The position numbers were made by a program, and so were the translations under genes. From Candidatus Omnitrophota bacterium (GTDB lineage: Bacteria; Omnitrophota; Gorgyraeia; Pluralincolimonadales; Pluralincolimonadaceae): a stretch of DNA of 64,000 bases. Numbering within the stretch: position 1 is the stretch's first letter; each line of letters begins with the position of its first letter. The stretch covers positions 13,173 through 77,172 of the forward strand of contig JBAZJG010000001.1 in assembly GCA_041651455.1 (NCBI GenBank). Direction: 5' to 3'. The notes below the pieces were generated by a model. That model worked only from the letters and a program-made list of their open reading frames with translations, was not told the origin of the DNA and did no database searches. Positions 8,699 through 64,000 of the stretch are shown here, in pieces.

Positions 8699-8706
8699 GA
8701 CCGACA

Positions 8707-9402
8707 GTGAGAAGTATTATAATAATATTTTCTTTAGTATTTATTGTTTTATATGGGGTATTTTTTACACTCGATGCTCTTGCACTCCAACACCTGACCC
8801 AGGAAGACGGAGTTATTGAGTGGTTCGGCGCTTTATGCTTTTTAGCCGCCTGCGTATTGTTATTTCGCGTATTTTACCGAACAAAGTACGCTTTTATTCT
8901 TCTATTGGGTATTGCCTGCTTTTTTGCTTTCGGAGAAGAAATTAGCTGGGGACAGCGGATAATAGGCTTTAAAACACCAGAATCAATCGAAAAAATAAAC
9001 GCACAGAAAGAATTTAATATCCATAACCTCAAATGGATTCAGCATAAAGACACTATTGGCATGGATATGAAGAGTATTTTAAATTTCAACCGTTTATTCA
9101 TTATATTTTGGATATCATATTGTGTCATTTTACCGATCGTATTTAAGTATGGCACATACGCCAGAAGCATCATTTTGCGCCTAAAAATCCCGGTGCTGCC
9201 CATATGGTTCGGAGTGTTGTTTTTTATAAATGAAATTACCTGTAAGTATCTGGATTGGTATTTGGATAACAAATGGCTGCAACGCCTTGGAGAGAACGAG
9301 GTCAAGGAAGCGATATGGGGGCTATTAATTTTGCTGATTAGTATTTATTGGACCAAAAAGAAGAAATCCATGATAGGTTGTAATACTCCGAATGATTTAT
9401 AA
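8707..9402 (+). CDS. Hypothetical integral membrane protein (first gene of the AT-rich segment)
   Basis: Multiple hydrophobic helices. GC content drops sharply from here on. Confidence 0.45.
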   Translation: MRSIIIIFSLVFIVLYGVFFTLDALALQHLTQEDGVIEWFGALCFLAACVLLFRVFYRTKYAFILLLGIACFFAFGEEISWGQRIIGFKTPESIEKINAQKEFNIHNLKWIQHKDTIGMDMKSILNFNRLFIIFWISYCVILPIVFKYGTYARSIILRLKIPVLPIWFGVLFFINEITCKYLDWYLDNKWLQRLGENEVKEAIWGLLILLISIYWTKKKKSMIGCNTPNDL

Positions 9403-10621
9403 GTTTAATATTAACAAGTCAATAAATCTGCTATTAAGCCAAGTAGTATATTCGGGGAAAAGTTTTCTAATAGCTTTTGTTTTGGCGAGATATTTTGATA
9501 AAGTTGCTTTCGGAATATTTTCTTTTGCAATGATAGGTTTAAATAATTATTTAGCTTTATTGACGGGCCTCGTATATGAACCACTGGCGATTCTCAAAAA
9601 TGAGGTAAAATCAGGATACTGTAATGTAGTCACTTATTTATTCAGGAAACAATGGCAGCTGAATCTTATCCTATGCCTATTACTGTTTTCACTCCTGTTG
9701 TTTAATATTTCCGGGCTAACAGCAAAGAGAATCACACTAATCTTTATATTATTTGTTCTGTCTCAATTGCATGAATTTTTTAAACGGGTACAATTAGGAC
9801 AACTTGATACAAAGGTGGCCCTCGCCTACGATTTAGCTGTTACCGTGTTTCAAGTAGGGTTCTTAGCACTGTATTTTCTGATGAAAAAGGTGGATCTTGA
9901 CAATGTATTCATTGCTCTTTCTCTTGGTTGTGTTCCGACGATCCTATTCGGGTTGATCAAGCATCCCGAAGTATTTGCCCCTCACAAGGCGATCAAAGAT
10001 ATATTTGCCCGTAGTTATTATAAATACGTAAAGCCGAATTTTATGTTCTTTATAGTGGGTTTTGCCTCAAACCAGTTCAATAATTTTGCTATATTTATGT
10101 TTCTTGGCAGCTCGAATTTGGCGAACTGCGAAGCAGTGCGTCTTACCATTATTCCTTTACACATAACGATTTTGGCGATGGGTAATATTCTTATACCATA
10201 TTTTTCGAAAAACTTGGCTGTATACGGGAAGGAAGAAACCGTTATTAAATTCAGGCACGTATTATCTCTTTCCTTAGTTATTTTTGGCATTTTCGCATTA
10301 TTTATGTTGGCGTCAGGGCCTGCTTTATTAACATATTTCTATGGCGCTAAATACCAAAACCAGCTTATTCTACTCGTCATATATACTTTTATATATGTAT
10401 TTGACGGGCTGACTATAATCCTGATTTCATTCATGAAATCCCTGGGATTGATAAATGAAGGCCTTCGCCGGAGGTTTATCGTAGCGATCCTTAATATAAT
10501 ATTAGTATTTCCATTATTGCACTATTATAAGGAAGCAGGCGGATTGTTTTCAATGATGGTTTCAAGCGCCATCATGGTAGTTATGTACTTTAAGATCTTA
10601 CGCAATAGAAAGCTCGTATAA
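9392..10621 (+). CDS. Multi-pass membrane protein, oligosaccharide flippase-like (MOP/Wzx family)
   Basis: 409 aa with about 10-12 TM helices. It lies next to glycosyltransferase genes. Confidence 0.45.
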   Translation: MIYKFNINKSINLLLSQVVYSGKSFLIAFVLARYFDKVAFGIFSFAMIGLNNYLALLTGLVYEPLAILKNEVKSGYCNVVTYLFRKQWQLNLILCLLLFSLLLFNISGLTAKRITLIFILFVLSQLHEFFKRVQLGQLDTKVALAYDLAVTVFQVGFLALYFLMKKVDLDNVFIALSLGCVPTILFGLIKHPEVFAPHKAIKDIFARSYYKYVKPNFMFFIVGFASNQFNNFAIFMFLGSSNLANCEAVRLTIIPLHITILAMGNILIPYFSKNLAVYGKEETVIKFRHVLSLSLVIFGIFALFMLASGPALLTYFYGAKYQNQLILLVIYTFIYVFDGLTIILISFMKSLGLINEGLRRRFIVAILNIILVFPLLHYYKEAGGLFSMMVSSAIMVVMYFKILRNRKLV

Positions 10622-10640
10622 TGAAGAGAATGAATAGAAA

Positions 10641-11849
10641 ATGAACGTATTGATGCCGATATATTCCTGCAATCCTGAAGGTGAGTCGGAGTCACTTGTT
10701 GGGTATAATTGGCTTGAGCAGATAAGCAAGCATCACAAGGTGTTCCTGATTACCGAGCTGAGATATAAGAAAGCTTTGGAAGCCAGGCCAACTGAAAATA
10801 TTGTTTATAACTATGTTTCTGTTCCCCATTTCTGGGATCTGGAAATATTTAGCGCATTTCCACCAGCGTATTTTATTTTTATGATAAAAGCTTATATTGT
10901 GGCAAAGCGGATAGTAAAAAATGAAAAAATCGATTTAATCCACAGAATAACTCCAATAGCATTTCGTTTCCCGGATATAATTACTAACATAAAATTGCCT
11001 TATATTATTGGTCCAGTTGGTGGAGGGCTAAAGCCGCTAAAATCGTTTCAAGGTGTTTTCAAAAAGGAAAGCCCTGTATATGCATTAAGGACCTTCGATT
11101 CGTTAAGATTCGCATTGGACCCTTTCTTAATAAGAACATACAATCGAGCGACAAGTATTCTTGTGATAGGAAAGTACCTTTATGATGTATTCCCGAAGGA
11201 GTATCATAAAAAGACAAAAGTATATTGTGAGGCTACAATTGATTCGAGAAAGTATAACTATGTACCTGAAAGGAGTAACAATATAATTGAGCTATTGTAT
11301 GTAGGTAGGTTTATACCGTTAAAGGCGGTGAGCCTGCTTATTAGGGCATTAAAAATATTAAAAGATGAGAATAGTATAATTGAATATCGCCTAACACTGA
11401 TTGGTGGAGGCGGGGAGTATTATAAATATTGTGTGAATCTTGCAAAGGAATTGGGAATTTCATCAAACCTCAAATTTATGGGGAGAATAAAACGTAGCGA
11501 AATAATCGAATACTATCAAAAATGCGACATATTTTGTTTTCCCAGCTTGAAGGAGACGTCTGGAAATGTTGTACTGGAGGCAATGAGTTGCGGGATTCCG
11601 GTAATTGTTGCGGATAGAGGTGGGCCGGCTGAGATCGTAGATAGTGGCTGCGGAATCAAGATTCCCGTAACGAATGAAGATGAATTTATCGTCCGGTTGA
11701 AGGATGCCATTGTGTTGTTAGCTCAAGATAAGGAATTGCGCCACTTTTATGCCGCTAATGCCCGAAAAAGGATCGAACAGCTATACGATAACAACAATAT
11801 CGGCGAGCAAATCACGGAGATCTATAAAGACGCCCTGACCCATGCATAA
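10641..11849 (+). CDS. Family 4 glycosyltransferase (GT4, GT-B fold)
   Basis: The C-terminal half carries the GT4 EX7E region (FCFPSLKETSGNVVLEAMSCGIPVIVADRGGPAEIV). Confidence 0.8.
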   Translation: MNVLMPIYSCNPEGESESLVGYNWLEQISKHHKVFLITELRYKKALEARPTENIVYNYVSVPHFWDLEIFSAFPPAYFIFMIKAYIVAKRIVKNEKIDLIHRITPIAFRFPDIITNIKLPYIIGPVGGGLKPLKSFQGVFKKESPVYALRTFDSLRFALDPFLIRTYNRATSILVIGKYLYDVFPKEYHKKTKVYCEATIDSRKYNYVPERSNNIIELLYVGRFIPLKAVSLLIRALKILKDENSIIEYRLTLIGGGGEYYKYCVNLAKELGISSNLKFMGRIKRSEIIEYYQKCDIFCFPSLKETSGNVVLEAMSCGIPVIVADRGGPAEIVDSGCGIKIPVTNEDEFIVRLKDAIVLLAQDKELRHFYAANARKRIEQLYDNNNIGEQITEIYKDALTHA

Positions 11850-13017
11850 AATATCCGGTATTCGGCTGGCTTTAGTCAACCTTGTTACGCAAACCGCGCT
11901 AACTCGAATAAAGGCGCCACTTGTAAAATCTAATAAAGACGCCATGATCGTCTCTTTTGCGGCTGCCCTAAACAAACAAGGCGTGGCGACGGATCTATTT
12001 GTATCGGATGCGTATAAACCCGAAAACAATGAAGATATCGGCGTCAATGTATATTATCTTCCCACTAAATGGAAACGGGTATTTTGGCCTTCATGTATCC
12101 CGCTTACGCCGGGGCTTATCAGGATGCTCAAGGATAGATATGACGTGGTGGTTTGTTCGGAATTATTTCAGATTGCAACGGTCCTTGCCGTGATAGCAAA
12201 AATTCTTGGCAGGAGAAAGATGAAGATCGTTGTATGGCAGGAGATGGCGCGGCATCAGAGGATTATGGGGCAGCTTATATCAAAGATATACCATGCAGTT
12301 GTTGTAAGGTATTTCATGGATAGGCATATCGATCTTTATATCCCTCGCGGAGAATTGGCAAGACGATTCCTTTTAAGCCAGGGGATCAAAGAAGGCAAGA
12401 TTTCCGACATTATTCCACACGGAGTAGATGCAGACAAGTTCTACTATGATCCTGAGGTGAGAAAAGAGCGCTATATTATTTCGCCTTCCAGGTTAGTATA
12501 TTCAAAGGGCGTGGACGTTCTATTGAAAGCATTTGAAATTGTGTTAAAGGAAATCCCGGATGTACGGCTCATCATTCAAGGCGACGGGCCACAACTAGAG
12601 GAATATAAACAACTTGCCAAAGAGGCCAGGATTGACAAACAGGTCATTTTTAGTACCGAACGGATATCTCACAATGAAATGCGGCAGAAATACCAGAGAG
12701 CGCTGGTGACAGTTATTTGCTCTCGTAAGGATTTGATGATTTTTAGCGCAATGGAAAGCCTCGCTTGCGGAACGCCTGTTATTATTTCAAACGGAGCGGA
12801 TAGTTACACGAATTATCTTGACGGAAAGGGAGGAGTTGTATTCGCCTCAGGCGATTATAGTTCGCTGGCAGGAGTGATTTCATATTTGTTAAAGGACGAT
12901 AAATATCGAAAGGATATGGTTGGATTTGCGCTGGAAAAAGCAAAATATTACAGTAACGAGTACTTATCCGCTTTATTTATAGAAACGATCAGCCAGAAAC
13001 AGGGAAAATCTAAATGA
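11842..13017 (+). CDS. Family 4 glycosyltransferase (GT4)
   Basis: C-terminal motif ICSRKDLMIFSAMESLACGTPVIISNG. GT-B fold. Confidence 0.75.
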   Translation: MHKISGIRLALVNLVTQTALTRIKAPLVKSNKDAMIVSFAAALNKQGVATDLFVSDAYKPENNEDIGVNVYYLPTKWKRVFWPSCIPLTPGLIRMLKDRYDVVVCSELFQIATVLAVIAKILGRRKMKIVVWQEMARHQRIMGQLISKIYHAVVVRYFMDRHIDLYIPRGELARRFLLSQGIKEGKISDIIPHGVDADKFYYDPEVRKERYIISPSRLVYSKGVDVLLKAFEIVLKEIPDVRLIIQGDGPQLEEYKQLAKEARIDKQVIFSTERISHNEMRQKYQRALVTVICSRKDLMIFSAMESLACGTPVIISNGADSYTNYLDGKGGVVFASGDYSSLAGVISYLLKDDKYRKDMVGFALEKAKYYSNEYLSALFIETISQKQGKSK

Positions 13018-14459
13018 ACTATAGAAATACCTTTTTGACGCTATCAATCGCAGTTATAGCGTCAATATTGTTTGCGAACCAATTCCTTGACATAACAGAA
13101 ATAGTTTATGCCATTTACAATAGTTCCGCAGTTGCGAGAATACTGCCCTTCATAGTTGTATTATTTGTGTTTTGGCTGTTGCTCGCCGTATTTGTTTATT
13201 TCCTGGTCTTATCGCTAATAAAAACACAACTCGGGTTATATTTTGTAATACTGGTACTGCCAATGAGCGCCCTGCCGTTTATTTTATTGGGGTATCCTCA
13301 AGCCGTATTAAATTGGTCGTTTATGTGCCGGTCATCGGTGGTTGTGTTCGCGTTGATGATATCTATATTTTGGATGATAAGAACTTCTTTATCGGAAAGG
13401 CAACAAATACGGCTGCCATACCTTGGAAGCATAATTATATTTATTGCCCTGTATTCAATACACATAATAGGAATCGGCCCTGAGCTGAGGTTAAGCGTAA
13501 TTCAATCAATATTCGTGTTATTGTCAGTCAGTATTTTCTTTTATTTTATTATTAATTATGTAAAGGGTTATATCGAGATATATGGAATCGTCAAGGTCAT
13601 GGCCATTTCATGTATCCTTCAAGCCATATTATCTTTTTTCAGTTATTACTATTATGTAGCCATTAAAGGAGAGAGTATTTATAGCTTTAGCGGTTTTTTG
13701 CGTGATTATGAACTATTTGCCGAATACCTGGCTATTCATGTCCCGATTATATTATTTGTAATACGCAAGGAGACAGGAATATCAAAGAAAGTATTTACCG
13801 GCGGTTTGGTATTGGTAATCTTCGTATTAATAGCTACATTTAGCAGAGGGCCATTAGTTTCATTATTTATCGGGATGGTATATTACTTTATTCATTTAAG
13901 GAAAGTCGAAAAGCTGTCGGGTATATTCAAATCAATCCTACTGGGTGTATTTATGATCGGTATTATGTTATTCGCTGTTTATATGCTATTACCCGCTTCA
14001 GCGCGAATAATAGAACGGTTTCTTGCTACCGATCTTAGCACAATGGATACGAGAAGGGATGTCTGGTTAAGGTTTGGCGATTATTTTGCAGAAAAACCAA
14101 TTATAGGATACGGCATGTTTTATGATATACGAAGCGCCAAGTTGTTCTGGCCTCACAGCACTTATTTATTTTACCTTTTAACATTAGGGATCTGCGGCTT
14201 GCTGAATTACCTGATATTTTTATTCGGGATTATAAGAAAAGGACTTGAAAGCGCAAGAATAAGCCATTCAATTCCCCAATATTATGAGTTGACTATAACA
14301 TTGAATTCCGCTCTCATAGTGTTTATTATTGATGGCTTGAAGGTAGATTATCAGAGGTATTCTAATTATCAAATGTTTATATGGTTGATATTTGCGCTCG
14401 TTGTCTGTTTGAATATTATTACTAAAGAAAAATACATAGAAAGGTGTAATAAAAAATGA
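13014..14459 (+). CDS. O-antigen ligase/polymerase family membrane protein (Wzy-like)
   Basis: 481 aa with more than 10 TM helices. It contains the Wzy_C-like loop (ATFSRGPLVSLFIG). Confidence 0.6.
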   Translation: MNYRNTFLTLSIAVIASILFANQFLDITEIVYAIYNSSAVARILPFIVVLFVFWLLLAVFVYFLVLSLIKTQLGLYFVILVLPMSALPFILLGYPQAVLNWSFMCRSSVVVFALMISIFWMIRTSLSERQQIRLPYLGSIIIFIALYSIHIIGIGPELRLSVIQSIFVLLSVSIFFYFIINYVKGYIEIYGIVKVMAISCILQAILSFFSYYYYVAIKGESIYSFSGFLRDYELFAEYLAIHVPIILFVIRKETGISKKVFTGGLVLVIFVLIATFSRGPLVSLFIGMVYYFIHLRKVEKLSGIFKSILLGVFMIGIMLFAVYMLLPASARIIERFLATDLSTMDTRRDVWLRFGDYFAEKPIIGYGMFYDIRSAKLFWPHSTYLFYLLTLGICGLLNYLIFLFGIIRKGLESARISHSIPQYYELTITLNSALIVFIIDGLKVDYQRYSNYQMFIWLIFALVVCLNIITKEKYIERCNKK

Positions 14460-15589
14460 AAAAAGCATTAAGCATATTATTTATACTTTTGTCTTCCAGT
14501 AATATAAATTGTCATGCGCGAGAGATATATGTGTCGAAGGCAATTAATCTATTTGACGTAAATGATGGCGGAAAGGTTGTCTTTAATACTATACAGGAAG
14601 CAGTAGAAAGGGCGAGGCCCGGGGATATTGTCACTATCCGGGAAGGAGTGTATTATGAAAATGTAAGTATGAAGACCAGCGGAAATGAGGATGACCGGAT
14701 TACTGTAAAAAGCCATAAAGATGAAAAAGTAATTATAAATGGCAGCCTGAAAAATGAACCCGCTTTCAAGATAGAAAATGCAAAATATATAGTTATTGAC
14801 GGCCTGGAATTCATTGAAGCTAAAAAGTATGGGATTGTTGCGCTAAATTCTTCTTACGTTAGGATTACAAATTGCATGGCATACGATAATCAGTGGGAAG
14901 GATTTTTAGGTTTACATGCAAGCAATGTTGAATTTATCGCGTGCATAGGTCATGACAATATCTGTGATTCATTTAATTTTAATGATTGCAAAGATTCTAT
15001 AATGCGGGATTGTATACAATATAACGGCGGGAATGGTTTAAGCATAGAACGCCAGAGCAAAAATATTATTGTTGAAAAATGCTTATTTTACAATAACTGG
15101 GCCGATGCTATATTGGTTTATAAAGAAAGCGAGAGCATTCTTTTGAAAGATAATATCATATATGATTGCCATTACAAAGATCCTCTCGATAATGGGCAGG
15201 GGCATGGAATGAAAATTACTCACGGTAATAATAACGTAATGGTTATCAACAATAAGATAGCAAAGTGTACAGCCGCAGCAATATATGAAATTGCTGATAA
15301 TGGTCCCAATATCATTTACGATGGCAATATATTTAGCGAGATTGGGGCGAGGATACCAAAGGTGCCTAAGAAAGCATGGAAGGACGATATTATATATAAG
15401 GGGAGCGGGGATTATCCAAAATTTATTGGGTGCGCCTGGTATAACTTAAAAGAAATTGAGAAAAATTGCTGGGGCAAAGGGAATCGATACGACGATTCTG
15501 AGATTATAAAAATAGAAAATAAAATCAAAGAGTTAAAAAGCAGAGGGATTATCGCGGATAAAGAAGATGAAAATCCTTCAAATAAATAA
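14456..15589 (+). CDS. Secreted right-handed parallel beta-helix protein (pectate-lyase fold; putative polysaccharide-modifying enzyme)
   Basis: A signal peptide is followed by repeated NxxxxxN/G beta-helix rungs (ITNCMAYDNQWEG..., IACIGHDNICDS..., CIQYNGGNGLS..., CLFYNNWAD...). Confidence 0.6.
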   Translation: MKKALSILFILLSSSNINCHAREIYVSKAINLFDVNDGGKVVFNTIQEAVERARPGDIVTIREGVYYENVSMKTSGNEDDRITVKSHKDEKVIINGSLKNEPAFKIENAKYIVIDGLEFIEAKKYGIVALNSSYVRITNCMAYDNQWEGFLGLHASNVEFIACIGHDNICDSFNFNDCKDSIMRDCIQYNGGNGLSIERQSKNIIVEKCLFYNNWADAILVYKESESILLKDNIIYDCHYKDPLDNGQGHGMKITHGNNNVMVINNKIAKCTAAAIYEIADNGPNIIYDGNIFSEIGARIPKVPKKAWKDDIIYKGSGDYPKFIGCAWYNLKEIEKNCWGKGNRYDDSEIIKIENKIKELKSRGIIADKEDENPSNK

Positions 15590-16793
15590 ATATTTATATC
15601 CAAAGGGCGGCGATGCCATCTGTGCTTTAGCAACAGGAGATCTGCTTCTGTCAAAAGGGCATGAGGTTGTATTCTGGGGCATGAAGGATGAAAAGGACCC
15701 GCCGTATCCGCACCATGATATTTTCGTTGATAAGATTGATTTGAGTTCGGCAGCAGGTATAAAACAACAATTTGAGGTTGCGGGGAAATTGCTATATTCG
15801 CTTGAGGCGAAAGCAAAAATCGAGAAACTGATCCAACGAATCGGGAAGCCGGATATCGTACATCTTCATAACTTCGCCCATCAAATATCGCCATCGATAT
15901 TACATGTCTTTAGGAAGCATAAAATTCCCTGCGTCATGACTGCGTATGATTACAAATTGGTTTGCGCATCATATGCTTTGCTGTCAAACGGTAAGCTTTG
16001 CGATAAATGCGCAGGCGGCGCCTATATCAATTGTATATTTGAAGGATGCGTAAAGGAATCCAGGTCGAAGAGCATGCTGAACGCATTTGAGATGTACCTG
16101 CATCATAGAGTATTGCATATTTATGACATAATAGATGCATATATTTCACCAAGCAAGTATTTAAAAAATAAGCTTGAGGAAATGGGTTTCAGTAGACGTA
16201 TTGAGTATTTGCCAAACTTTGTTTGCTTTGAAGAGTATCAGCCAAACTATAAATGGGAAGATAGGTCAATTGTATATTTTGGGAGAATTTCGAAAGAGAA
16301 GGGTTTATCGACACTTATTGAAGCCGTAAAATTATGCCCGGATATAACGCTTAAGATTATCGGAGATGGTCCGTTAAGAGAAAGCCTAGAATCAAGTATA
16401 CGAAGTGCAGGAGTTAATAATATAGTATTTTTGGGGCACATGACCGGCGATAATTTAAAAACGGAAATTAGAAAATCAATGTTTGTGGTTCTTCCTTCGG
16501 AATGGTATGAAAATAATCCTCGTTCAATTATCGAGGGATTTGCCCTTGGAAAGCCAGTCCTAGGCTCCCGGATCGGAGGAATTCCAGAGCTTGTAATAGA
16601 CAATGAAACAGGACTGTTGTTCAAATCTGGTGATTCTGAGGATTTGCGGGAGAAAATAAGGGAGTTAACAGCAACACCCGAAAAAATTATCCAAATGGGG
16701 AAGAATGCTAGAAAAAAGGTAGAATATGAGTATAATTCAAATAAATATTACAATGGCCTAATGCGGATTTATAATAGCGCAATAAATAAATGA
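15567..16793 (+). CDS. Family 4 glycosyltransferase (GT4)
   Basis: C-terminal motif VVLPSEWYENNPRSIIEGFALGKPVLGSRIGGIPELV. GT-B fold. Confidence 0.8.
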   Translation: MKILQINKYLYPKGGDAICALATGDLLLSKGHEVVFWGMKDEKDPPYPHHDIFVDKIDLSSAAGIKQQFEVAGKLLYSLEAKAKIEKLIQRIGKPDIVHLHNFAHQISPSILHVFRKHKIPCVMTAYDYKLVCASYALLSNGKLCDKCAGGAYINCIFEGCVKESRSKSMLNAFEMYLHHRVLHIYDIIDAYISPSKYLKNKLEEMGFSRRIEYLPNFVCFEEYQPNYKWEDRSIVYFGRISKEKGLSTLIEAVKLCPDITLKIIGDGPLRESLESSIRSAGVNNIVFLGHMTGDNLKTEIRKSMFVVLPSEWYENNPRSIIEGFALGKPVLGSRIGGIPELVIDNETGLLFKSGDSEDLREKIRELTATPEKIIQMGKNARKKVEYEYNSNKYYNGLMRIYNSAINK

Positions 16794-16802
16794 GGGAGAT
16801 TA

Positions 16803-17810
16803 ATGAAGAATATCGTCCAAGCTAGTTTAATTACTACATTTCGTTGTAATGCGCGCTGCCATATGTGCAACATCTGGGAATATCCGACAAAGCCCGAAGA
16901 AGAGCTGTCCGCGAAATATTATGAAAAACTGCCTGATGGAATGAGAATAAATATCACCGGTGGAGAGCCGACGTTAAGGAAAGATATAAATGAAATATTT
17001 CAGATTCTTTATCCAAAAGCCAGTCTTCTGGAATTAAGCACAAACGGTTATTACACAGATAAAATTGTATCGCTTGCGAATAAATACCCGAATATTTTGA
17101 TTCGTGTAAGTCTCGAGGGACTTCCAGCTTTAAACGACAAGTTAAGAGGCACAAAAGACGGATTTGATCATGCGTTGCGCACGATGCTTGAACTGAAAAA
17201 AACCAAATGCAGAAATATAGGATTTTCAATAGTGATAAATGATAAAAATATGGATGATCTAATAAGCTTATACGAATTATGCTGCTATCTCGATGTCGAA
17301 TTGGGTAATTCAGTTATGCACAATTCGTGGTATTTCCACAAGACAGATAACGCCATAGTTGATAGGGACAAAACAGTCCGGATAGAAGAAGAGTTCATTA
17401 AGGCAATGCTCCAATCGAAACGTAGGGGGTTCAGGGGCAAGCTAAAGGATTATGGCAGGGCTTATTTCAATAAAAGCATTTTAAGAAGATTCCAGGGTGA
17501 TTGTGTTAATTATCGCCCGCCATGCGGCGCCTTGGAGGATTTCTTCTTTATAGATCCTTCCGGGAACGTAACACCATGTAATGGTTCTGAAGAAGAGTGG
17601 ATCATCGGGAACATTAAAGAGGATACGTTTGAGAATATCATTAACTCTGAAAGAGCCAAGGAGATACTGAAAATAATCAAATCCTGCCAAAGGGAGTGCT
17701 GCTTTATTGTTACAGAACGTCACGATATGGTAAGAAAACCGTGGAAGCCCATATATTGGGTAATAAACAATAAGATCAGGCTTAGCATGAACAAGCCCAC
17801 TCAACTGTAG
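16803..17810 (+). CDS. Radical SAM enzyme with C-terminal SPASM/twitch-type auxiliary Cys cluster
   Basis: The CNARCHMC motif (CxxxCxxC) lies 14 residues from the N-terminus. The C-terminal Cys-rich region is CVNYRPPCGALEDFFFIDPSGNVTPCNG...CQRECC. Confidence 0.85.
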   Translation: MKNIVQASLITTFRCNARCHMCNIWEYPTKPEEELSAKYYEKLPDGMRINITGGEPTLRKDINEIFQILYPKASLLELSTNGYYTDKIVSLANKYPNILIRVSLEGLPALNDKLRGTKDGFDHALRTMLELKKTKCRNIGFSIVINDKNMDDLISLYELCCYLDVELGNSVMHNSWYFHKTDNAIVDRDKTVRIEEEFIKAMLQSKRRGFRGKLKDYGRAYFNKSILRRFQGDCVNYRPPCGALEDFFFIDPSGNVTPCNGSEEEWIIGNIKEDTFENIINSERAKEILKIIKSCQRECCFIVTERHDMVRKPWKPIYWVINNKIRLSMNKPTQL

Positions 17811-17815
17811 TTTCT

Positions 17816-18916
17816 ATGAAAATCGTATTTGTTGGCACTCGCGGGTTACCGAATGTCCAAGGTGGTGTTGAAAAGCACTGCGAGGAATTAACGAAACATT
17901 TGGCCAGGCTGGGTTGTGATGTCACAGTACTAACAAGAGCGCCTTACGTAGATTGCTCAATAGCCAGTCATAATAGTGTTAAGCTAATTCATTTGCCCGC
18001 AATAAGGAACAAATTCCTTGAAGCATATTGCCATACCTTCTACGGGATTATTGTGGCACGGAAGCTAAACCCGGATATTTTACATATTCAAGCCATTGGA
18101 CCAGGATTTTTCTGCCTATTTGCACGCATACTAGGTTTAAAAGTTGTCCTGACCAGCCATGGATCGAATTACAAACACCAAAAATGGGGTAGATTCTCGC
18201 GGTCATTTTTAAAATTCTGCGAGTACATGGGGGTTAGTTACGCTAATAAAGTTATTGCAATATCACAGAATATTGCGAACGAGATAAAAACTCAATATAA
18301 CCGGGAAGCGAAGGTTATACCTAATGGAGTAGAGATTCCTCAGGTTGAAGCTGAAAGCAATACCCTGGATGAATATGGATTGGAAAACAAGAAATACATA
18401 ATTGCTGTTGGAAGGTTTGTGGCAGGTAAAGGGTTCGAGGACTTGATCGAGGCTTTCGGCAGAGCATCGCTATCTTCATTCAAGCTGGTGATTGCCGGAG
18501 ATGCGGACGTAGAGGATGATTACAGCCGAGAACTGAAGGAACGGGCAAGACGGATGCCAAACGTTGTATTAACTGGTTTTATTACAGGTAAACCGTTGAA
18601 GGAGCTTTATAGCCATGCCGGGCTGTTTGTACTACCTTCCTATTATGAAGGCCTGCCGATAGCGCTGCTTGAGGCGATGAGCTACGGGCTGTCTTGCATA
18701 GTGTCGGATATACCCGCTAACAGGGAAGTTGGACTTGCCGAGGAAAGGTATTTTAATCCGGGAGACATCAAAGGGCTCTCGGATAAGATAAGGGAATTTG
18801 CCGCGAAGCCGTTAAGCGAAGAGGAAAAGTCCCGCCAGATAGCACTGATAAGAGAAAACTACGATTGGGATAAGATTGCCAAAGAGACCCTCCAGGTATA
18901 TCGCGATATCCTTTAA
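17816..18916 (+). CDS. Family 4 glycosyltransferase (GT4)
   Basis: N-terminal KIVFVGTRGLPNVQGGVEKH and C-terminal FVLPSYYEGLPIALLEAMSYGLSCIVSDIPANREV. Confidence 0.8.
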   Translation: MKIVFVGTRGLPNVQGGVEKHCEELTKHLARLGCDVTVLTRAPYVDCSIASHNSVKLIHLPAIRNKFLEAYCHTFYGIIVARKLNPDILHIQAIGPGFFCLFARILGLKVVLTSHGSNYKHQKWGRFSRSFLKFCEYMGVSYANKVIAISQNIANEIKTQYNREAKVIPNGVEIPQVEAESNTLDEYGLENKKYIIAVGRFVAGKGFEDLIEAFGRASLSSFKLVIAGDADVEDDYSRELKERARRMPNVVLTGFITGKPLKELYSHAGLFVLPSYYEGLPIALLEAMSYGLSCIVSDIPANREVGLAEERYFNPGDIKGLSDKIREFAAKPLSEEEKSRQIALIRENYDWDKIAKETLQVYRDIL

Positions 18917-18935
18917 AAGACTTCCTGTATTTCTG

Positions 18936-18968
18936 CTTGACAAGGCATTATTCTAAAAGGTAGAATAT
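18936..18968 (+). promoter_or_regulatory. Sigma70-like promoter candidate upstream of the first PEP-CTERM gene
   Basis: TTGACA at about 18937-18942, then an 18-nt spacer, then TAGAAT at about 18961-18966. Confidence 0.45.
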
Positions 18969-19029
18969 TACCACATGAAACAAGCCTGCCTGAGTGGGGG
19001 ACCGGCATTGGCAATCGGAGGAAACTACG

Positions 19030-19746
19030 ATGCGGAAAATTGCCTTTTCGGTTCTTTTTTTATGCCTGATTTCCAACCTTGCTATAGCTGATATATCAAC
19101 AATAGTGCTCCAACCGGGCCCTACGGATGGGAAAGATTCCATGGTCTCGGGAGCGGTGCCTAACCTCAACTATAGCCCATCAACCGGCAATTACTTCGGG
19201 ACATTCGAGAGGAACCAGGCCCTGCATGACGGGATATACAATGCCAACCATTCATTTGCGCTATATCAATTCGGGATGCCGTCGGTGCTCACCGGCCAGG
19301 ATATACTGAGCGCGACGTTCGAAGTGTATATATGCAACAACGTAATCAACACGAGCGGCGCAACAGGATATAAGACGCTGGGAGCGAACCGGATCACGAG
19401 CAATTGGGATGAATGGGCGGTGACGTGGAATACGAGGCCGTCAGAAGACACCTCCGTGATAGATTATTCGAATAATTTCTATGGCTACAATGCCTGGGCC
19501 TCATTTGATGTGACAAATTTCGTGGAAGGATGGGTCTCGAACCCGGCATCGAACTACGGGATGTACGTGAAAGACCCATGGACGACATATTACAGCTACA
19601 CGTGCCTGCAATCATCGGACTATAGTAACGCAACGTACCGTCCGAAGCTCACTATAACCTATAACGTTGTCCCGGAGCCGTGCAGTATGATATTATTTAC
19701 TGTAGGGGGAAGCGTCTTGTTCCTCCGACGTAGAATCCGCAAATAA
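19030..19746 (+). CDS. PEP-CTERM sorting-domain protein 1 (N-terminal domain resembles DNRLRE/CBM-like)
   Basis: Signal peptide MRKIAFSVLFLCLISNLAIA. The C-terminus NVVPEPCSMILFTVGGSVLFLRRRIRK* has the VPEP motif, a TM helix and an Arg cluster. Confidence 0.85.
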   Translation: MRKIAFSVLFLCLISNLAIADISTIVLQPGPTDGKDSMVSGAVPNLNYSPSTGNYFGTFERNQALHDGIYNANHSFALYQFGMPSVLTGQDILSATFEVYICNNVINTSGATGYKTLGANRITSNWDEWAVTWNTRPSEDTSVIDYSNNFYGYNAWASFDVTNFVEGWVSNPASNYGMYVKDPWTTYYSYTCLQSSDYSNATYRPKLTITYNVVPEPCSMILFTVGGSVLFLRRRIRK

Positions 19747-19771
19747 TACATAAAAATAGCAAGTAAATTTA

Positions 19772-59508: not shown

Positions 59509-60882
59509 ATGGAAAGAAAGAAAGTACTGGGATTCTGGGACCTTACGCTGTTCGTATTCTGCTCGATATTCGGCCTTGAGGCGATATCGGCGTCGGCGGC
59601 GATCGGCCCTTCAGCCTTATCATGGTGGCTGATAGGCATAACCTGCTATTTCCTGCCTTCAGGCCTCATATCGGCAGAATTGGGGTCGGCATATCCGGAC
59701 CAGGGAGGGATGTATGTCTGGATAAAGAGGGCGCTCGGGAAAAAATGGGCCGCCCGGAGCATATGGTATTATTGGGTATCGCTGCCCGTATGGCTGCCCG
59801 CGATATACATCGCGATCTCCGAGATGCTCGGGCATATGTTCTTCCCCGGCATCAGCCTCTGGCGGCAGATAGCGATCGGGACCGCGCTTATATGGATAGC
59901 GGTCGGGATAAATCTCTGCCCGCTGAAGGTATCGAAATGGATACCTAATATAGGCTCGATCGCGCAATCCGTCGTGGTCGTGGGCATGATCTGCGCCGCT
60001 ATCGCGTATTTCCGCGGCAGCGGGCATTTTGCCAACGATATAACGGCGGCGAACATACTGCCGAACCTCGGCGCGGCTATCGTTTTTATCCCGGTGATAA
60101 TCTACAATATCCTAGGCTGCGAGCTTGTCTCGTCCGCGGCCGGGGAGATGAAAGACCCCGCGCGGGACATGCCAAGGGCGCTGATATTCTCCGCAGTCGT
60201 GATCGCTTTGTTGTATTTGATAACCACGTTTGCGGTATTGGTGGTCATACCCATAAAGGAGATCAATATCTCAAGCGGGATACTCCAGCTTTTCATGATA
60301 GCGCTGGAAGGCCATGCGATGAGGAATATCGTCATTCTTGCCGCCGGGTCGCTTATATCGGTCGCCTTGTTCTCCGGCATCGTCGCGTGGACCTTAGGGC
60401 AGAACAGGGCGGTGGCCGAGTCCGCGAATAACGGCGAGCTGCCAAGGGTACTCGGCAGGACGAACAAGCAGATGGCGCCGGTCGGGGCATCGGTCGTATC
60501 CGGGGTCATCTCTACCGCCGTCCTGATCATGTACGGTTTTATTGCCAAAAACGCCGCAGAGCTGTTCTGGCATACGGTCTCGTTCAGCCTTATAGTGCAG
60601 TTGTTATCGTACCTGATGCTTTTCCCCGCTTTTGTAATATTAAGGAGAAGGGATGCGGGGATTCCGAGGCCATATCGGGTGCCGGGCCCGGAATGGTTTG
60701 CGGTGTTCCTGGCAGTAATGGCAGAAGTATTCGTTCTATCGGCGATGATCGTGTTGATCATACAGCCGGGTCATGATTTCGCAAGATCTTCCTTGCCGAT
60801 AATCATCGGGGTGCTTGTATCTGTTGCCGCCGGTGAATATTTGGTGGCCAATTCATCTTCGGAACACGGGAGAACAAAATGA
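59509..60882 (+). CDS. APC-family amino acid/polyamine permease
   Basis: 457 aa with 12 TM helices. It has an N-terminal GxG-like segment and a typical APC helix pattern. Confidence 0.7.
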   Translation: MERKKVLGFWDLTLFVFCSIFGLEAISASAAIGPSALSWWLIGITCYFLPSGLISAELGSAYPDQGGMYVWIKRALGKKWAARSIWYYWVSLPVWLPAIYIAISEMLGHMFFPGISLWRQIAIGTALIWIAVGINLCPLKVSKWIPNIGSIAQSVVVVGMICAAIAYFRGSGHFANDITAANILPNLGAAIVFIPVIIYNILGCELVSSAAGEMKDPARDMPRALIFSAVVIALLYLITTFAVLVVIPIKEINISSGILQLFMIALEGHAMRNIVILAAGSLISVALFSGIVAWTLGQNRAVAESANNGELPRVLGRTNKQMAPVGASVVSGVISTAVLIMYGFIAKNAAELFWHTVSFSLIVQLLSYLMLFPAFVILRRRDAGIPRPYRVPGPEWFAVFLAVMAEVFVLSAMIVLIIQPGHDFARSSLPIIIGVLVSVAAGEYLVANSSSEHGRTK

Positions 60883-61640
60883 AGCAATGGTATGAATTAT
60901 TTTTTGAGAATTACGCCTGTAAATATGATCAGGAAAGTTATGTTCAAGGGACGGCCGGAGAATGTGATTCTATTGAACGGGAGATAAATCACGATAAGTC
61001 GGTAAAGATTTTGGATATCGGCTGTGGCACCGGCCGCCATGCTATTGAGTTGGCAAAAAGAGGGTATCAAGTAACGGGAATCGATCTCTCCGAGTCACAG
61101 CTTAAGAGGGCAAGAGAAAAAGCAAAAGAGCAAGGAGTGAAGATTGACTTCCGGAAGCATGATGCAAGAAACCTTCCCTTCGAAGGCGATTTCGGCCTGG
61201 TAATCATGCTCTGTGAGGGCGGTTTTTCCTTGATGGAAACGGATGAAATGAATTTCGAAATACTTAAGAATGCGACAAAGGCATTGAAAATAAACGGGAA
61301 GTTTATATTCACTACATTGAACGGATTGTTTCCGCTGTTCCATTCGGCAAAGGAAGTTTATGCATCGGCGGGTAAAGACGGGAATTCTATTTGTAAAAGC
61401 ATATCCTTTGATCTGATGACCTTCCGCGATCATAATCAGGTTGAATTTGAAGATGACGCAGGAAATAAAAAGGTACTGGAATGCAATGAGCGCTGTTATG
61501 TTCCCAGCGAGATCACGTGGCTTTTGAAAACGCTCGAATATAAAAAAATCGAGATTTTCGGCGCGAAGCTCGGGGCATATTCAAGGAATGATAAACTGAC
61601 CACAGAAGATTTTGAGATGCTTGTTATCGCGGAAAGATGA
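60879..61640 (+). CDS. Class I SAM-dependent methyltransferase (small-molecule/TehB-UbiE type)
   Basis: ILDIGCGTGRHAIELAKRGYQVTGIDLS is motif I, followed by the acidic loop and motifs II/III. Its GC content is clearly lower than the upstream permease gene. Confidence 0.8.
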   Translation: MKQWYELFFENYACKYDQESYVQGTAGECDSIEREINHDKSVKILDIGCGTGRHAIELAKRGYQVTGIDLSESQLKRAREKAKEQGVKIDFRKHDARNLPFEGDFGLVIMLCEGGFSLMETDEMNFEILKNATKALKINGKFIFTTLNGLFPLFHSAKEVYASAGKDGNSICKSISFDLMTFRDHNQVEFEDDAGNKKVLECNERCYVPSEITWLLKTLEYKKIEIFGAKLGAYSRNDKLTTEDFEMLVIAER

Positions 61641-61827
61641 AAAAAGAAGACAAATATATTTTTATACGCACCTTCGGCTGACCGATGGTGCCAGTGGCGA
61701 GGGATGATTTTAGGGATATTAAAGATGTTAAGTGATTGTGATAAAACTGGTTAAAATAAAAAGATGGACCTGAACTCAGATTTTTGATGGGGAGAACTAA
61801 TTGGTAATAAGTAAGCTAAAGATACGC

Positions 61828-62712
61828 ATGGGACCAGCAGGAATACTGTTTTTCAATAGAAGAACTGGTATAAATATTTTGGTAGATGAATTCACGCCTC
61901 CACCTAAATTATGGTCAGCTGCTCCACGACAAGTATCTATTGCTTTGACTAATGCTTGTGATTTGGTATGTCCTTACTGCTATGCATCGAAAAATTCAGT
62001 AATGTTAGACTTTGAAAGTTTAAAACACTGGCTTATTGAATTAGATTTGAACGGTTGTGTTGGAGTTGGTTTTGGAGGTGGGGAGCCTACCCTATATCCA
62101 TATTTGGTAGAAATTTGTTCTTTTGCAGCTAACGAGACAAGGCTGGCTGTTACCATGACAACCCATGCTCATCGCCTCAATAAGCAATTTTTAGATGACC
62201 TTGCTGGAAATTTAAATTTTGTGCGAATTAGTATGGATGGAGTGGGAAGTACGTATGAATCAACTCGGAATCGATCCTTTGACGAGTTAATTAAGCATAT
62301 CGTAGATATTGGGAAAATTTTTCGGTTTGGAATTAATTATGTAGTTAATTCTAAGACTTTCTGTGACCTCGAATCTGCGATATGTGTAGCTGATGATCTT
62401 GGTGCATCCGAATTTTTGCTTTTGCCGGAGATCTCAGTAAATGACGTTAGCGGCATAAGTAGCGAGACATTGGATGCCTTGCGAATTTGGGTGAGTAGAT
62501 ACCAAGGAAATGTCCCTCTTTCAATTAGTGAGAGTCACAAGGAAGGATTTCCTTTTTGTGACCCGTTTAAGACTGAAAAGGAACTTTCTGCTTTTGCACA
62601 TATAGATGCATCAGGTACCCTCAAACGAACATCATTTGATTTAAATGGTATTCAGATTCAAGAAGATGGGATAATGGCAGCATTAAAAATAATGAATTCG
62701 GAGGTGGCATAA
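61828..62712 (+). CDS. Compact radical SAM enzyme (no SPASM domain) of unknown function
   Basis: The ATG at 61828 gives MGPAGILFFNRRTGINILVDEF... The radical SAM motif is ALTNACDLVCPYCY (CxxxCxxC), and GFGGGEPTLY is the SAM-binding GGE motif. The gene is very AT-rich. The ORF track extends it to a TTG at 61801. Confidence 0.8.
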   Translation: MGPAGILFFNRRTGINILVDEFTPPPKLWSAAPRQVSIALTNACDLVCPYCYASKNSVMLDFESLKHWLIELDLNGCVGVGFGGGEPTLYPYLVEICSFAANETRLAVTMTTHAHRLNKQFLDDLAGNLNFVRISMDGVGSTYESTRNRSFDELIKHIVDIGKIFRFGINYVVNSKTFCDLESAICVADDLGASEFLLLPEISVNDVSGISSETLDALRIWVSRYQGNVPLSISESHKEGFPFCDPFKTEKELSAFAHIDASGTLKRTSFDLNGIQIQEDGIMAALKIMNSEVA

Positions 62713-63107
62713 TGAAAATATGGAGAGAATTTGGCACTGAACATTCATGGAATTTAGTTATGATTGGGACTTTTAAAAATTCGGATGATGCAAAAAAAAC
62801 AAAAGAGTTAATAGAGCAGCTAACAGAAAAACTGCACGATAAAGTTAATGTCGGAAAATCTTCAGATCGCTACCCCGAGGAAGTTAGTAATGTTCTACGG
62901 GAAGCGGATTGCTTCATACTCAGTCCTTTTGAACTTGAGCATTTCCTGTATGATATTAGCACTCACGTAGAAGGAGATAAAATCATTTTGAAGACTGATG
63001 AATCAGAAATTTCAGCTTTCTTTAAATTAATGGTGCACAATGGAGCGAGGGTAGAGATTTACTCAGCACATGACTATCCAGATGAAAAATATGGGCGGGG
63101 GAAATAG
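62712..63107 (+). CDS. Hypothetical 131-aa protein, translationally coupled to the radical SAM gene
   Basis: Its ATG overlaps the upstream TAA by 1 nt. No motif was recognised. The gene is AT-rich. Confidence 0.5.
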   Translation: MKIWREFGTEHSWNLVMIGTFKNSDDAKKTKELIEQLTEKLHDKVNVGKSSDRYPEEVSNVLREADCFILSPFELEHFLYDISTHVEGDKIILKTDESEISAFFKLMVHNGARVEIYSAHDYPDEKYGRGK

Positions 63108-63109
63108 AT

Positions 63110-64000
63110 ATGCCTATGCTTAATTGGGAAAAGTTCTATTCATTGCCGGGAAGCCCCAATCAAAACCTTGAGACTCTCTGTCGTGCTTTGGTTCGTCTAC
63201 ATTTTGAACAATATGGACAATTTGCAGCTTTAAGAAATCAGCCTGGAGTTGAATTCCATCTCAAATTAACGAGTAGCTGTACGTTAGGCGATCCGCCGCG
63301 TTGGTATGGCTGGCAGTGTAAATTGTATAAACAGATTAAATCGGGCGATCTAACAAGTGCAAGTCGGAAGGACATTGAAGATTCCTTAAAAAAGACCGAG
63401 AAACACTTACCAAATATTACGGATTGGGTGCTTTGGACTCCATATACTCTGAGTAAAAAAGACCAAGAATGGTTAAAGACACTCCATACCGCGCTAACAC
63501 TTCATCAGTGGACGAATGAAGATCTTGATACTTACCTCAATGGACCAGGACTTTTTTTAAGGAACACCTATTTTGGTGACTTAGTTGTAACACCAGAAGA
63601 GTTGAGATTGAGACATGAGGAAGCAGTTCAATCGATTCGGAAAAGATGGTTAGACAAGGTCCATCAATCGGTTGATGCTGAACGTATCGTTAGACGGATG
63701 CTTGGAGAGCCAGGTTCTTGGGATCAGTTGACAGATGTGGGACAGCGTTTGAAATCAGCAGCAGATAACATCTTCGCTTGTGTAAGTGAAACACATACTT
63801 ACTTAAAGACGGCAACTGATCCATTAGTTTCAGTGTGTTCTACCTTTGCTGATACGCTCTTACACTTCCATGAAATTTTGTTAGCTGGAGATTTAGATAT
63901 CATTCGACAAAAGCTTAGTGAACAAAAGACACTAGTAAACAAGCATGTTAGAGATGTCCCAAGACTCCTAAGGAAATCTAATTTACCTATTGCTATTGAT
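63110..64000 (+). CDS. N-terminal about 297 aa of a large protein with a PD-(D/E)xK-like nuclease motif. The gene runs off the 3' end of the window.
   Basis: The ATG at 63110 is 2 nt after the upstream stop. The ORF stays open to position 64000. The segment LTSSCTLGD-x6-WQCKLYK fits a hydrophobic-D...(E/Q)xK pattern. No Walker A motif appears yet. Confidence 0.6.
   Translation, partial: MPMLNWEKFYSLPGSPNQNLETLCRALVRLHFEQYGQFAALRNQPGVEFHLKLTSSCTLGDPPRWYGWQCKLYKQIKSGDLTSASRKDIEDSLKKTEKHLPNITDWVLWTPYTLSKKDQEWLKTLHTALTLHQWTNEDLDTYLNGPGLFLRNTYFGDLVVTPEELRLRHEEAVQSIRKRWLDKVHQSVDAERIVRRMLGEPGSWDQLTDVGQRLKSAADNIFACVSETHTYLKTATDPLVSVCSTFADTLLHFHEILLAGDLDIIRQKLSEQKTLVNKHVRDVPRLLRKSNLPIAID

What the first reader, a model, noticed from the sequence alone, without database searches (positions are those of the whole stretch)
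60879..64000. AT-rich terminal cassette: SAM methyltransferase, compact radical SAM enzyme, small protein, and a large PD-(D/E)xK-like protein
GC content falls abruptly from about 60% in the APC permease gene to roughly 40% or below, and stays low to the end of the window. The three downstream genes are tightly coupled: a 1-nt overlap, then a 2-nt gap. They encode a 295-aa radical SAM enzyme with CDLVCPYCY but no SPASM/twitch cluster, an unrecognisable 131-aa protein, and a long ORF still open at position 64000. That last protein has an N-terminal D-x6-Q-x-K motif reminiscent of Mrr/PD-(D/E)xK nuclease folds, which often sit at the N-terminus of STAND or Avs-type defence proteins. I cannot match this gene order to a described defence or modification system from memory (pVip, Dnd/Ssp, BREX and others were considered). 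The composition suggests horizontal acquisition. This is my best candidate for an undescribed system.
Basis: partly seen in the sequence, partly recalled or inferred. Interest (0 to 1): 0.78.

Follow-up and report, generated by a model that had tools for sequence, protein, structure and literature searches.

The report
Known Avs2 anti-phage operon (Avap1–Avap2–Avs2)
The AT-rich end of the window is a horizontally acquired copy of an anti-phage system already described and tested in 2024: an Avs2 sensor-nuclease with its two helper proteins, a radical SAM enzyme and a DUF6375 protein. It is therefore an ordinary new member of a known family, and the neighbouring methyltransferase is not part of it.

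Summary
GC falls from about 54% (GC3 about 0.7) in the permease to 42% in the methyltransferase and 37-41% (GC3 about 0.3) in three tightly coupled genes, and the last ORF is still open at 64000.

The interpretation as an "undescribed system" does not hold. An identical public contig (L001) completes the large protein at 1416 aa. It is an Avs2-family STAND NTPase (PADLOC Avs2, E=4e-102) with an N-terminal Mrr-like nuclease (E48, Q69-x-K71) and a Walker A motif (K334). The 131-aa protein is Pfam DUF6375 (E=3e-41).

Radical SAM + DUF6375 + Avs2 is the KpAvs2 operon (Avap1, Avap2, Avs2) of Béchon et al. 2024 (PMC11564622). That work showed defence by abortive infection and non-specific DNA degradation. 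Catalytic K71 and K337 of KpAvs2 align with K71 and K334 here.

In 82 non-redundant loci from many bacterial phyla and Methanothrix, the three genes keep the same order wherever the contig allows. One of these loci is a genome shown in that paper.

The methyltransferase is a conserved Omnitrophota gene and is not part of the system. The island lies between it and a MiaB-like gene, and this interval varies among relatives.

The roles of Avap1 and Avap2 remain open. The Avap1 model resembles RiPP maturases (SkfB, SuiB) more closely than viperin.

The parts
60879..61640 (+). Class I SAM-dependent methyltransferase, 253 aa. This is the left flank and NOT part of the system. Its start overlaps the permease stop (ATGA).
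   Evidence: Pfam Methyltransf_25/31/11. More than 100 Omnitrophota homologues of 253 aa at 79-87% identity. Not adjacent to the trio in the other loci; the single MT hit (L096) was not located. GC3 0.46, intermediate.
61637..61681 (+). 14-codon remnant (MKKEDKYIFIRTFG*) of the 5' end of a MiaB-family gene. It overlaps the methyltransferase stop and marks the left border of the island.
   Evidence: Aligns with the start of the intact MiaB-like gene to the right of the island (L001 from about 14782...NKIFLVTFGCQMNFRDSE); score 40 against shuffles of 24±3.7, maximum 35. The junction 26-mer that encodes IRTFGCQMN is found in MiaB-type genes of 45 unrelated contigs.
61682..61800 (+). AT-rich leader upstream of avap1, with a Shine-Dalgarno-like GGGGAG at 61789-61794.
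   Evidence: Read directly from the sequence. GC 0.36. No sigma-70-like promoter above chance.
61801..62712 (+). avap1: compact radical SAM protein, 303 aa from TTG. Cluster cysteines are C53/C57/C60, at 61957-61980.
62712..63107 (+). avap2: DUF6375 protein, 131 aa, overlapping the avap1 stop by 1 nt.
63110..64000 (+). avs2, first 297 of 1416 codons. The ORF continues to window-equivalent 67360 (L001 10399-14649). This stretch holds the N-terminal Mrr-like nuclease and the helical linker.
   Evidence: L001 is 100% identical to the window over 11289 nt. The full protein hits PADLOC Avs2 PDLC02164 at E=4e-102 over residues 2-964. It also matches PDB 9o4e Avs2 at E=2e-13.
63251..63322 (+). Nuclease active-site residues of Avs2: E48 (63251-63253) and Q69-C70-K71 (63314-63322).
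   Evidence: E48, Q69 and C70 are invariant in 28 homologues; K71 is conserved in all nine homologues. A profile of the domain hits residues 1-101 of EcAvs4 (PDB 8dgf) at E=5.6e-5, aligning GWQcK with GWQSK. K71 corresponds to the KpAvs2 K71A mutant that loses defence.

Best explanation
The locus is a three-gene KpAvs2-type AVAST type 2 anti-phage operon, avap1 (radical SAM), avap2 (DUF6375) and avs2, carried on an AT-rich island of about 5.7 kb in a Candidatus Omnitrophota genome. The mechanism is inferred by homology to the tested Klebsiella system. The long C-terminal sensor of Avs2 binds a phage protein (the large terminase subunit or another phage-specific protein). The central STAND NTPase (Walker A K334) then drives oligomerisation. 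This activates the N-terminal Mrr-like nuclease (E48, Q69-x-K71), which degrades DNA non-specifically and aborts the infection. Avap2 is expected to be bound constitutively to the helical bundle between the nuclease and the NTPase, and to be needed for defence. Avap1 probably widens the range of phages covered, through a radical SAM reaction that is still unknown. Shown here: the identity of the three proteins, intact catalytic motifs, a conserved gene order and foreign composition. Inferred: phage sensing, nuclease activation and the roles of Avap1 and Avap2 in this organism.
For: Full-length protein from the identical contig L001. PADLOC Avs2 E=4e-102, NCBIfam Avs2 E=1e-81 and PDB 9o4e Avs2. 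The N-terminal domain matches the EcAvs4 nuclease in PDB 8dgf and NCBIfam/PADLOC Avs4 N-termini. K71 and K334 align with K71 and K337 of the enterobacterial homologue, which are the KpAvs2 mutant positions. Avap2 = PF19902 and Avap1 = PF04055, the criteria used by Béchon et al. 2024. In 82 non-redundant loci, Avap1 lies directly upstream in 81 (the remaining locus has it 410 nt away) and Avs2 directly downstream in 80 (the other 2 are contig ends); identities of Avap1 and Avs2 co-vary with r=0.83. L078 is Nitrospirae JdFR-85, a genome drawn in Fig. 1B of the paper, with 54/46/42% identity to the three proteins here. Related loci sit among toxin-antitoxin, AbiEii, PLD and Fic genes. GC3 is about 0.3 against about 0.7 in host genes.
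Against: The NCBIfam Avs2 equivalog score (275 bits) is far below its curated cut-off of 1000, so the protein belongs to a divergent Avs2 clade. Identity to the enterobacterial (KpAvs2-like) proteins is only 36-49%. No function has been tested in this organism, and phages of Omnitrophota are essentially unknown. No promoter or terminator signal exceeds chance. I did not have the KpAvs2 sequence itself, so the comparison goes through the Pseudocitrobacter, Pectobacterium and JdFR-85 homologues.
Confidence: 0.9

Rival explanations
1. A new four-gene defence or modification system in which the SAM methyltransferase works together with the radical SAM enzyme, the small protein and the STAND nuclease.
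For: The methyltransferase also has lowered GC (0.42). It gives a PADLOC hit to mad2 at E=2.4e-24, restricted to the generic methyltransferase domain.
Against: The methyltransferase is a lineage-conserved 253-aa Omnitrophota gene and is found next to unrelated genes in relatives. It is separated from avap1 by a MiaB-gene remnant and a 160-nt spacer. It is not adjacent to the trio in the other loci; the single MT hit (L096) was not located. The trio on its own is the published system.
Confidence: 0.02
2. Avap1 is a viperin-like enzyme that makes chain-terminating nucleotides, so the locus combines pVip-type chemistry with Avs2.
Confidence: 0.08
3. The island is an inactive relic, meaning a decaying copy of the operon with no current function.
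For: It is a solitary insertion in a housekeeping neighbourhood with no integrase. No promoter-like site exceeds chance.
Against: All three ORFs are full length compared with homologues (1416 aa against 1411-1420). All catalytic motifs are intact and the translational coupling is preserved. Truly decayed copies look different: the Methanothrix loci have a truncated avap1 next to a transposase.
Confidence: 0.08

Closest known systems
KpAvs2 operon (Avap1-Avap2-KpAvs2) of Klebsiella pneumoniae S_15PV, Béchon et al. 2024, Nat Commun 15:9860 (PMC11564622)
   Same: Same three genes in the same order. Radical SAM (PF04055), DUF6375 (PF19902), and an Avs2 with an N-terminal Mrr-like nuclease (catalytic K71), a STAND Walker A lysine (K337 there, K334 here) and a long C-terminal sensor. 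Full-length homology to enterobacterial and JdFR-85 members of the same set.
   Different: Only about 36% (Avs2), 41% (Avap2) and 49% (Avap1) identity to the enterobacterial representatives. The host is a Candidatus Omnitrophota MAG. The operon is a solitary insertion between housekeeping genes, not part of a defence island. Nothing has been tested here, and the phage triggers are unknown.
Single-gene Avs2 (EcAvs2; PDB 9o4e) and the other AVAST nucleases EcAvs4 (PDB 8dgf) and SeAvs3, Gao et al. 2020/2022
   Same: STAND NTPase plus a C-terminal sensor for phage proteins, with an N-terminal PD-(D/E)xK nuclease. The QxK active-site motif aligns with Q63/K65 of EcAvs4.
   Different: Those proteins act alone, whereas this clade needs Avap2 and, for some phages, Avap1. 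Similarity to EcAvs2 is detectable only over residues 748-948. The NCBIfam Avs2 equivalog cut-off is not reached.
Prokaryotic viperins (pVip)
   Same: Compact radical SAM enzymes of about 300 aa without a SPASM domain, found in defence contexts. They are the best sequence-family hits for Avap1.
   Different: Curated cut-offs are not met. The similarity is limited to the core. The published work found no nucleotide products and no NTP pocket. The fold is closer to RiPP maturases.
Radical SAM RiPP maturases SkfB (6efn) and SuiB (5v1q)
   Different: Avap1 has no Pfam SPASM hit and no conserved set of auxiliary-cluster cysteines. No precursor-peptide gene is known, and no complete RRE domain is present.

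Membership tests
KpAvs2-type operon (Avap1-Avap2-Avs2) | Large protein is an Avs2-family STAND NTPase | tested here: met
   PADLOC Avs2 models: PDLC02164 E=4e-102 over residues 2-964, and five further Avs2 models. PDB 9o4e Avs2 E=2e-13.
KpAvs2-type operon (Avap1-Avap2-Avs2) | N-terminal Mrr-like PD-(D/E)xK nuclease with the catalytic lysine (K71 in KpAvs2) | tested here: met
   E48, Q69 and C70 are invariant in 28 homologues; K71 is conserved in the nine sequences. The domain profile hits the EcAvs4 nuclease (8dgf residues 1-101) at E=5.6e-5. K71 is at the same position as in the enterobacterial homologue.
KpAvs2-type operon (Avap1-Avap2-Avs2) | Intact STAND Walker A lysine (K337 in KpAvs2) | tested here: met
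   GGGKT with K334 (L001 11398-11400) aligns with GEGKS K337 of the Pseudocitrobacter homologue. This lies outside the 64-kb window.
KpAvs2-type operon (Avap1-Avap2-Avs2) | Adjacent Avap2, a PF19902 (DUF6375) protein | tested here: met
   PF19902 E=3.2e-41, 141.5 bits against a cut-off of 27.5, full length.
KpAvs2-type operon (Avap1-Avap2-Avs2) | Adjacent Avap1, a PF04055 radical SAM protein | tested here: met
   PF04055 at 54.1 bits against a cut-off of 29.5. CxxxCxxC and the GGE motif are invariant.
KpAvs2-type operon (Avap1-Avap2-Avs2) | Conserved order avap1-avap2-avs2 on one strand, and homology to a locus shown in the defining paper | tested here: met
   81 of 82 loci have Avap1 directly upstream and 80 of 82 have Avs2 directly downstream; the exceptions are contig ends or a 410-nt gap. 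L078 is Nitrospirae JdFR-85 of Fig. 1B.
KpAvs2-type operon (Avap1-Avap2-Avs2) | Anti-phage activity by abortive infection; Avap2 binds the helical bundle of Avs2 | not testable with these tools
   Needs experiments or a multimer structure prediction. Only single chains could be modelled here.
NCBIfam NF041813 Avs2 (equivalog) | Whole-protein score above the curated cut-off (1000 bits) | tested here: not met
   275.2 bits, E=1.2e-81, matching residues 305-942 only. The protein therefore belongs to a divergent Avs2 clade and not to the EcAvs2-like equivalog.
Prokaryotic viperin (pVip) | Score above the curated cut-off of NF038283 (180 bits), with full-length similarity | tested here: not met
SPASM/twitch radical SAM maturases | C-terminal auxiliary Fe-S cluster cysteine motif | tested here: not met
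   No Pfam SPASM hit. Beyond the SAM cluster only C106 is invariant; C86 is 80% and C253 84% conserved in 74 homologues.
DNA-modification defence methyltransferase (MADS mad2, type II MTase), considered for the 253-aa methyltransferase | Full-length match and association with the defence genes | tested here: not met
   The mad2 hit covers only profile positions 283-401 of 492. The best NCBIfam hits are small-molecule methyltransferases, all below their cut-offs. The gene is a conserved lineage gene with other neighbours.

The most novel reading that the evidence does not exclude
Avap1 is not a nucleotide-modifying viperin. It is instead a stripped-down RiPP-maturase-like radical SAM enzyme that modifies a protein after translation: Avap2, the Avs2 linker, or a phage protein. 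That would make this clade the first NLR-like immune receptor tuned by radical SAM protein chemistry. Hints: the Avap1 model matches SkfB and SuiB best, over almost its whole length and including an N-terminal three-stranded sheet. Avap2 is unusually conserved, with invariant polar residues (E10-H11-S12, T95, E97, K105, S118, H120), and its termini are predicted with low confidence (residues 1-11 and 129-131). The published work found no viperin products. None of this is specific to the present window.
Probability: 0.2. Interest if true: 0.7.

Novelty: new member of a known kind. Interest (0 to 1): 0.2.

Why it matters
The finding matters little as a discovery. The gene trio was described, named and tested in 2024, and PADLOC's Avs2 models already recognise the large protein. 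The locus does extend the known host range of the Avap1/Avap2-dependent Avs2 clade to Candidatus Omnitrophota. It also gives a clean example of a solitary defence insertion, placed between a conserved methyltransferase and a MiaB-like gene. The real open question lies in the family: what the radical SAM protein Avap1 and the highly conserved Avap2 do for an NLR-like receptor. The structural and conservation data gathered here suggest testing for protein modification and not nucleotide modification.

Tried and rejected
1. I scanned JGI metagenomes for an "empty site" junction (left remnant + core + right flank, 26-mer). It returned 45 exact hits, all from unrelated MiaB-type genes with no similarity to the left flank. 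The 26-mer is simply a conserved MiaB motif, so this says nothing about a sibling strain without the island.

2. I tried to retrieve the 230-kb source contig to see the downstream region. Only the 35-kb ENA contig and the 5.9-kb Logan contig could be read.

3. Promoter and terminator scans of the island found nothing above chance.

5. I considered an auxiliary Fe-S cluster in Avap1, using C86, C106 and C253. I rejected it as a conserved feature, because only C106 is invariant.

6. I considered the methyltransferase as part of the system and rejected it.

7. The variable genes at the same methyltransferase/MiaB position in two relatives were checked against PADLOC and gave no hits.

8. The supplementary sequence files of the defining paper are not held, so the KpAvs2 sequence itself could not be aligned.
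Full report
**1. Observation**

The composition change is real.
- Upstream genes (RsmF, a 390-aa protein, VIT1, the APC permease) have GC 0.53-0.57 and GC3 0.68-0.75.
- The methyltransferase (60879-61640) has GC 0.423 and GC3 0.46.
- The three following genes have GC 0.37-0.41 and GC3 0.29-0.34.

The drop is larger at third codon positions.

The ORFs are as described.
- The radical SAM ORF 61801-62712 contains CDLVCPYCY.
- A 131-aa ORF, 62712-63107, overlaps it by 1 nt.
- A large ORF starts at 63110 after a 2-nt gap and is still open at 64000.

The radical SAM gene most likely starts at TTG 61801, giving 303 aa. A GGGGAG sits 6 nt upstream, and the conserved N-terminal LKxR motif of homologues lies before the ATG at 61828.

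**2. Completing the locus**

The exact 131-aa protein is found on two public contigs. L001 (ENA ERZ27247363) is 100% identical to the window over 11289 nt and extends it by 3.7 kb. L002 (Logan SRR8542065) is identical to L001 over its whole length and spans almost exactly the island.

The large ORF is 1416 aa, at L001 10399-14649, which is window-equivalent 63110-67360. About 130 nt downstream, a MiaB-family gene begins (MNDNQIQRNKIFLVTFGCQMNFRDSEEIAG...). The source organism is a Candidatus Omnitrophota MAG, according to the name NCBI attaches to the identical protein.

**3. What the proteins are**

*The 1416-aa protein.*
- It hits six PADLOC Avs2 models. The best is E=4e-102 and covers residues 2-964 of the protein, including the N-terminal domain.
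- It hits the NCBIfam Avs2 model at E=1e-81, but at 275 bits it is below the strict equivalog cut-off of 1000.
- It matches the solved Avs2 structure 9o4e at E=2e-13.
- A profile of the first 140 residues from 28 homologues hits residues 1-101 of EcAvs4 (PDB 8dgf), the Mrr-like nuclease domain, at E=5.6e-5. This aligns NQPGVE with NQSGIE and GWQCK with GWQSK.
- E48, Q69 and C70 are invariant in those 28 homologues, and K71 is conserved in the nine sequences.
- The Walker A motif is GGGKT, with K334.

*The 131-aa protein.* It is a full-length member of Pfam PF19902 (DUF6375), E=3e-41.

*The radical SAM protein.* It matches PF04055. Its best family-level hits are prokaryotic viperins, but these cover only the core and fall far below the curated cut-offs.

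**4. The system is already described**

A full-text search for DUF6375, and for Avs2 together with radical SAM, returns one paper: Béchon et al., Nat Commun 2024 (PMC11564622). According to that paper:
- Avs2 of Klebsiella pneumoniae S_15PV lies in a three-gene operon with a radical SAM protein (Avap1) and a PF19902 protein (Avap2).
- About 5% of Avs2 homologues are associated with Avap2, and most of those also with Avap1.
- The operon protects E. coli from several phages by abortive infection with non-specific DNA degradation.
- The K71A (nuclease) and K337A (NTPase) mutants lose defence.
- Avap2 binds a helical bundle between the nuclease and the NTPase, and is required for defence.
- Avap1 is required against T2 but not against SECphi18.
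- The biochemical roles of both accessory proteins are unknown. No viperin-type nucleotides were detected.

A 2026 paper that uses KpAvs2 says nothing further on the accessory proteins.

**5. Membership tested with related loci**

A scan of GTDB genomes with an Avap2 alignment, together with four metagenome look-ups, gave 86 loci, 82 of them non-redundant.
- Avap1 lies directly upstream on the same strand in 81 loci. The remaining locus has it 410 nt away.
- Avs2 lies directly downstream in 80 loci. The two exceptions are contig ends.
- Identities of Avap1 and Avs2 to the query co-vary, r=0.83.
- The loci come from Cyanobacteria, Pseudomonadota, Actinomycetota, Planctomycetota, Verrucomicrobiota, Nitrospirota, Paenibacillus and the archaeon Methanothrix.
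- L078 is Nitrospirae bacterium JdFR-85, one of the genomes drawn in Fig. 1B of the paper. Its three proteins are 54%, 46% and 42% identical to those here.
- In the Pseudocitrobacter homologue (L123), the nuclease lysine is K71 and the Walker lysine is K337, exactly the KpAvs2 numbering. These align with K71 and K334 here.
- No methyltransferase accompanies the trio in the other loci. The only methyltransferase hit was in L096, and I did not check its position.

**6. The methyltransferase and the insertion site**

The methyltransferase is a 253-aa gene conserved at 79-87% identity in more than a hundred Omnitrophota sequences. It is a native gene, and the 209-aa public gene call is too short.

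In two relatives the order is methyltransferase, one variable gene (an α/β hydrolase in one and a 513-aa unknown in the other, neither hitting PADLOC), MiaB-like gene, SPOR/TPR protein, MiaA, HflX. The methyltransferase/MiaB interval is therefore a variable spot in this lineage.

In the window, a 14-codon ORF (MKKEDKYIFIRTFG*) begins at the methyltransferase stop codon. It resembles the start of the intact MiaB-like gene on the far side of the island: alignment score 40 against 24±3.7 in shuffles, sharing ACCTTCGGCTG. This looks like a target duplication left by insertion into the 5' end of the MiaB-like gene, with the island supplying a replacement start. No integrase is present. I could not find an empty site in a sibling strain.

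**7. Extra data on the accessory proteins**

*Avap1.*
- The AF2 model is confident (pLDDT 88.9).
- Beyond CxxxCxxC only C106 is invariant (C86 80%, C253 84%), so there is no conserved auxiliary cluster.

*Avap2.*
- The model is a ferredoxin-like α/β sandwich (pLDDT 81.7). Residues 1-11 and 129-131 have low confidence.
- It has no specific structural relative.
- It is unusually conserved (mean column identity 78%).
- Its invariant polar residues are E10, H11, S12, N14, T95, E97, K105, S118 and H120.

These data fit the published negative result for viperin chemistry. They make a protein-directed radical SAM reaction a reasonable hypothesis to test, but they do not establish it.

**8. Verdict**

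The claim of an undescribed system is wrong, and the methyltransferase is not part of the system. The locus is a new, untested member of the published KpAvs2-type Avs2 operon family. Interest is low for the locus itself. Some residual interest attaches to the unsolved roles of Avap1 and Avap2 in the family.

Noticed in passing
window 61637-61681 and L001 14782-14963: A 14-codon fragment (MKKEDKYIFIRTFG*) directly after the methyltransferase resembles the 5' end of the intact MiaB-like gene to the right of the island. They share the core ACCTTCGGCTG. This looks like a duplicated target from insertion into the start of that gene, although the island carries no integrase.
   Followed up: partly
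L135 5821-6702; L136 5831-7372 (Omnitrophota relatives): The interval between the conserved methyltransferase and the MiaB-like gene holds different single genes in relatives: an α/β hydrolase in one and a 513-aa protein with no Pfam or PADLOC hit in the other. It may be a lineage-specific hotspot for cargo genes.
   Followed up: partly
L002 (Logan SRR8542065 contig, 5851 bp) = window 61713 to window-equivalent 67563: An independent assembly breaks about 90 nt upstream of avap1 and about 200 nt downstream of avs2, so the contig is almost exactly the island. The ENA contig also ends about 110 nt beyond that right-hand break. This could reflect strains with and without the island in the samples.
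   Followed up: no
window about 8300-19750: A second low-GC stretch (0.35-0.44) encodes a surface-polysaccharide cluster: four GT4 glycosyltransferases, a Wzy/O-antigen ligase-like protein, a β-helix protein, a radical SAM/SPASM protein and a CBM96 protein.
   Followed up: partly
L004 7330-7989, also L005 and L057 (Methanothrix): The trio also occurs in the archaeon Methanothrix. There avap1 is truncated (only residues about 116-286 align) next to a DDE transposase, while avap2 and avs2 remain intact.
   Followed up: no
window 62712-63107 (Avap2): Avap2 is unusually conserved for a small accessory protein. Its invariant polar residues (E10-H11-S12, N14, T95, E97, K105, S118, H120) suggest a defined binding or catalytic site and not a mere scaffold. 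The model coordinates could not be inspected.
   Followed up: partly
window 60879-61640: The public gene call for the methyltransferase (209 aa, start at window 61011) cuts off the SAM-binding motif ILDIGCGTG. The 253-aa ORF from ATG 60879 matches the length of all close homologues.
   Followed up: yes
L009-L053 (JGI metagenome contigs): The 26-mer ATACGCACCTTCGGCTGCCAGATGAA, which encodes IRTFGCQMN, occurs exactly in 45 otherwise unrelated contigs. This shows nucleotide-level conservation of the MiaB-family N-terminal motif.
   Followed up: partly
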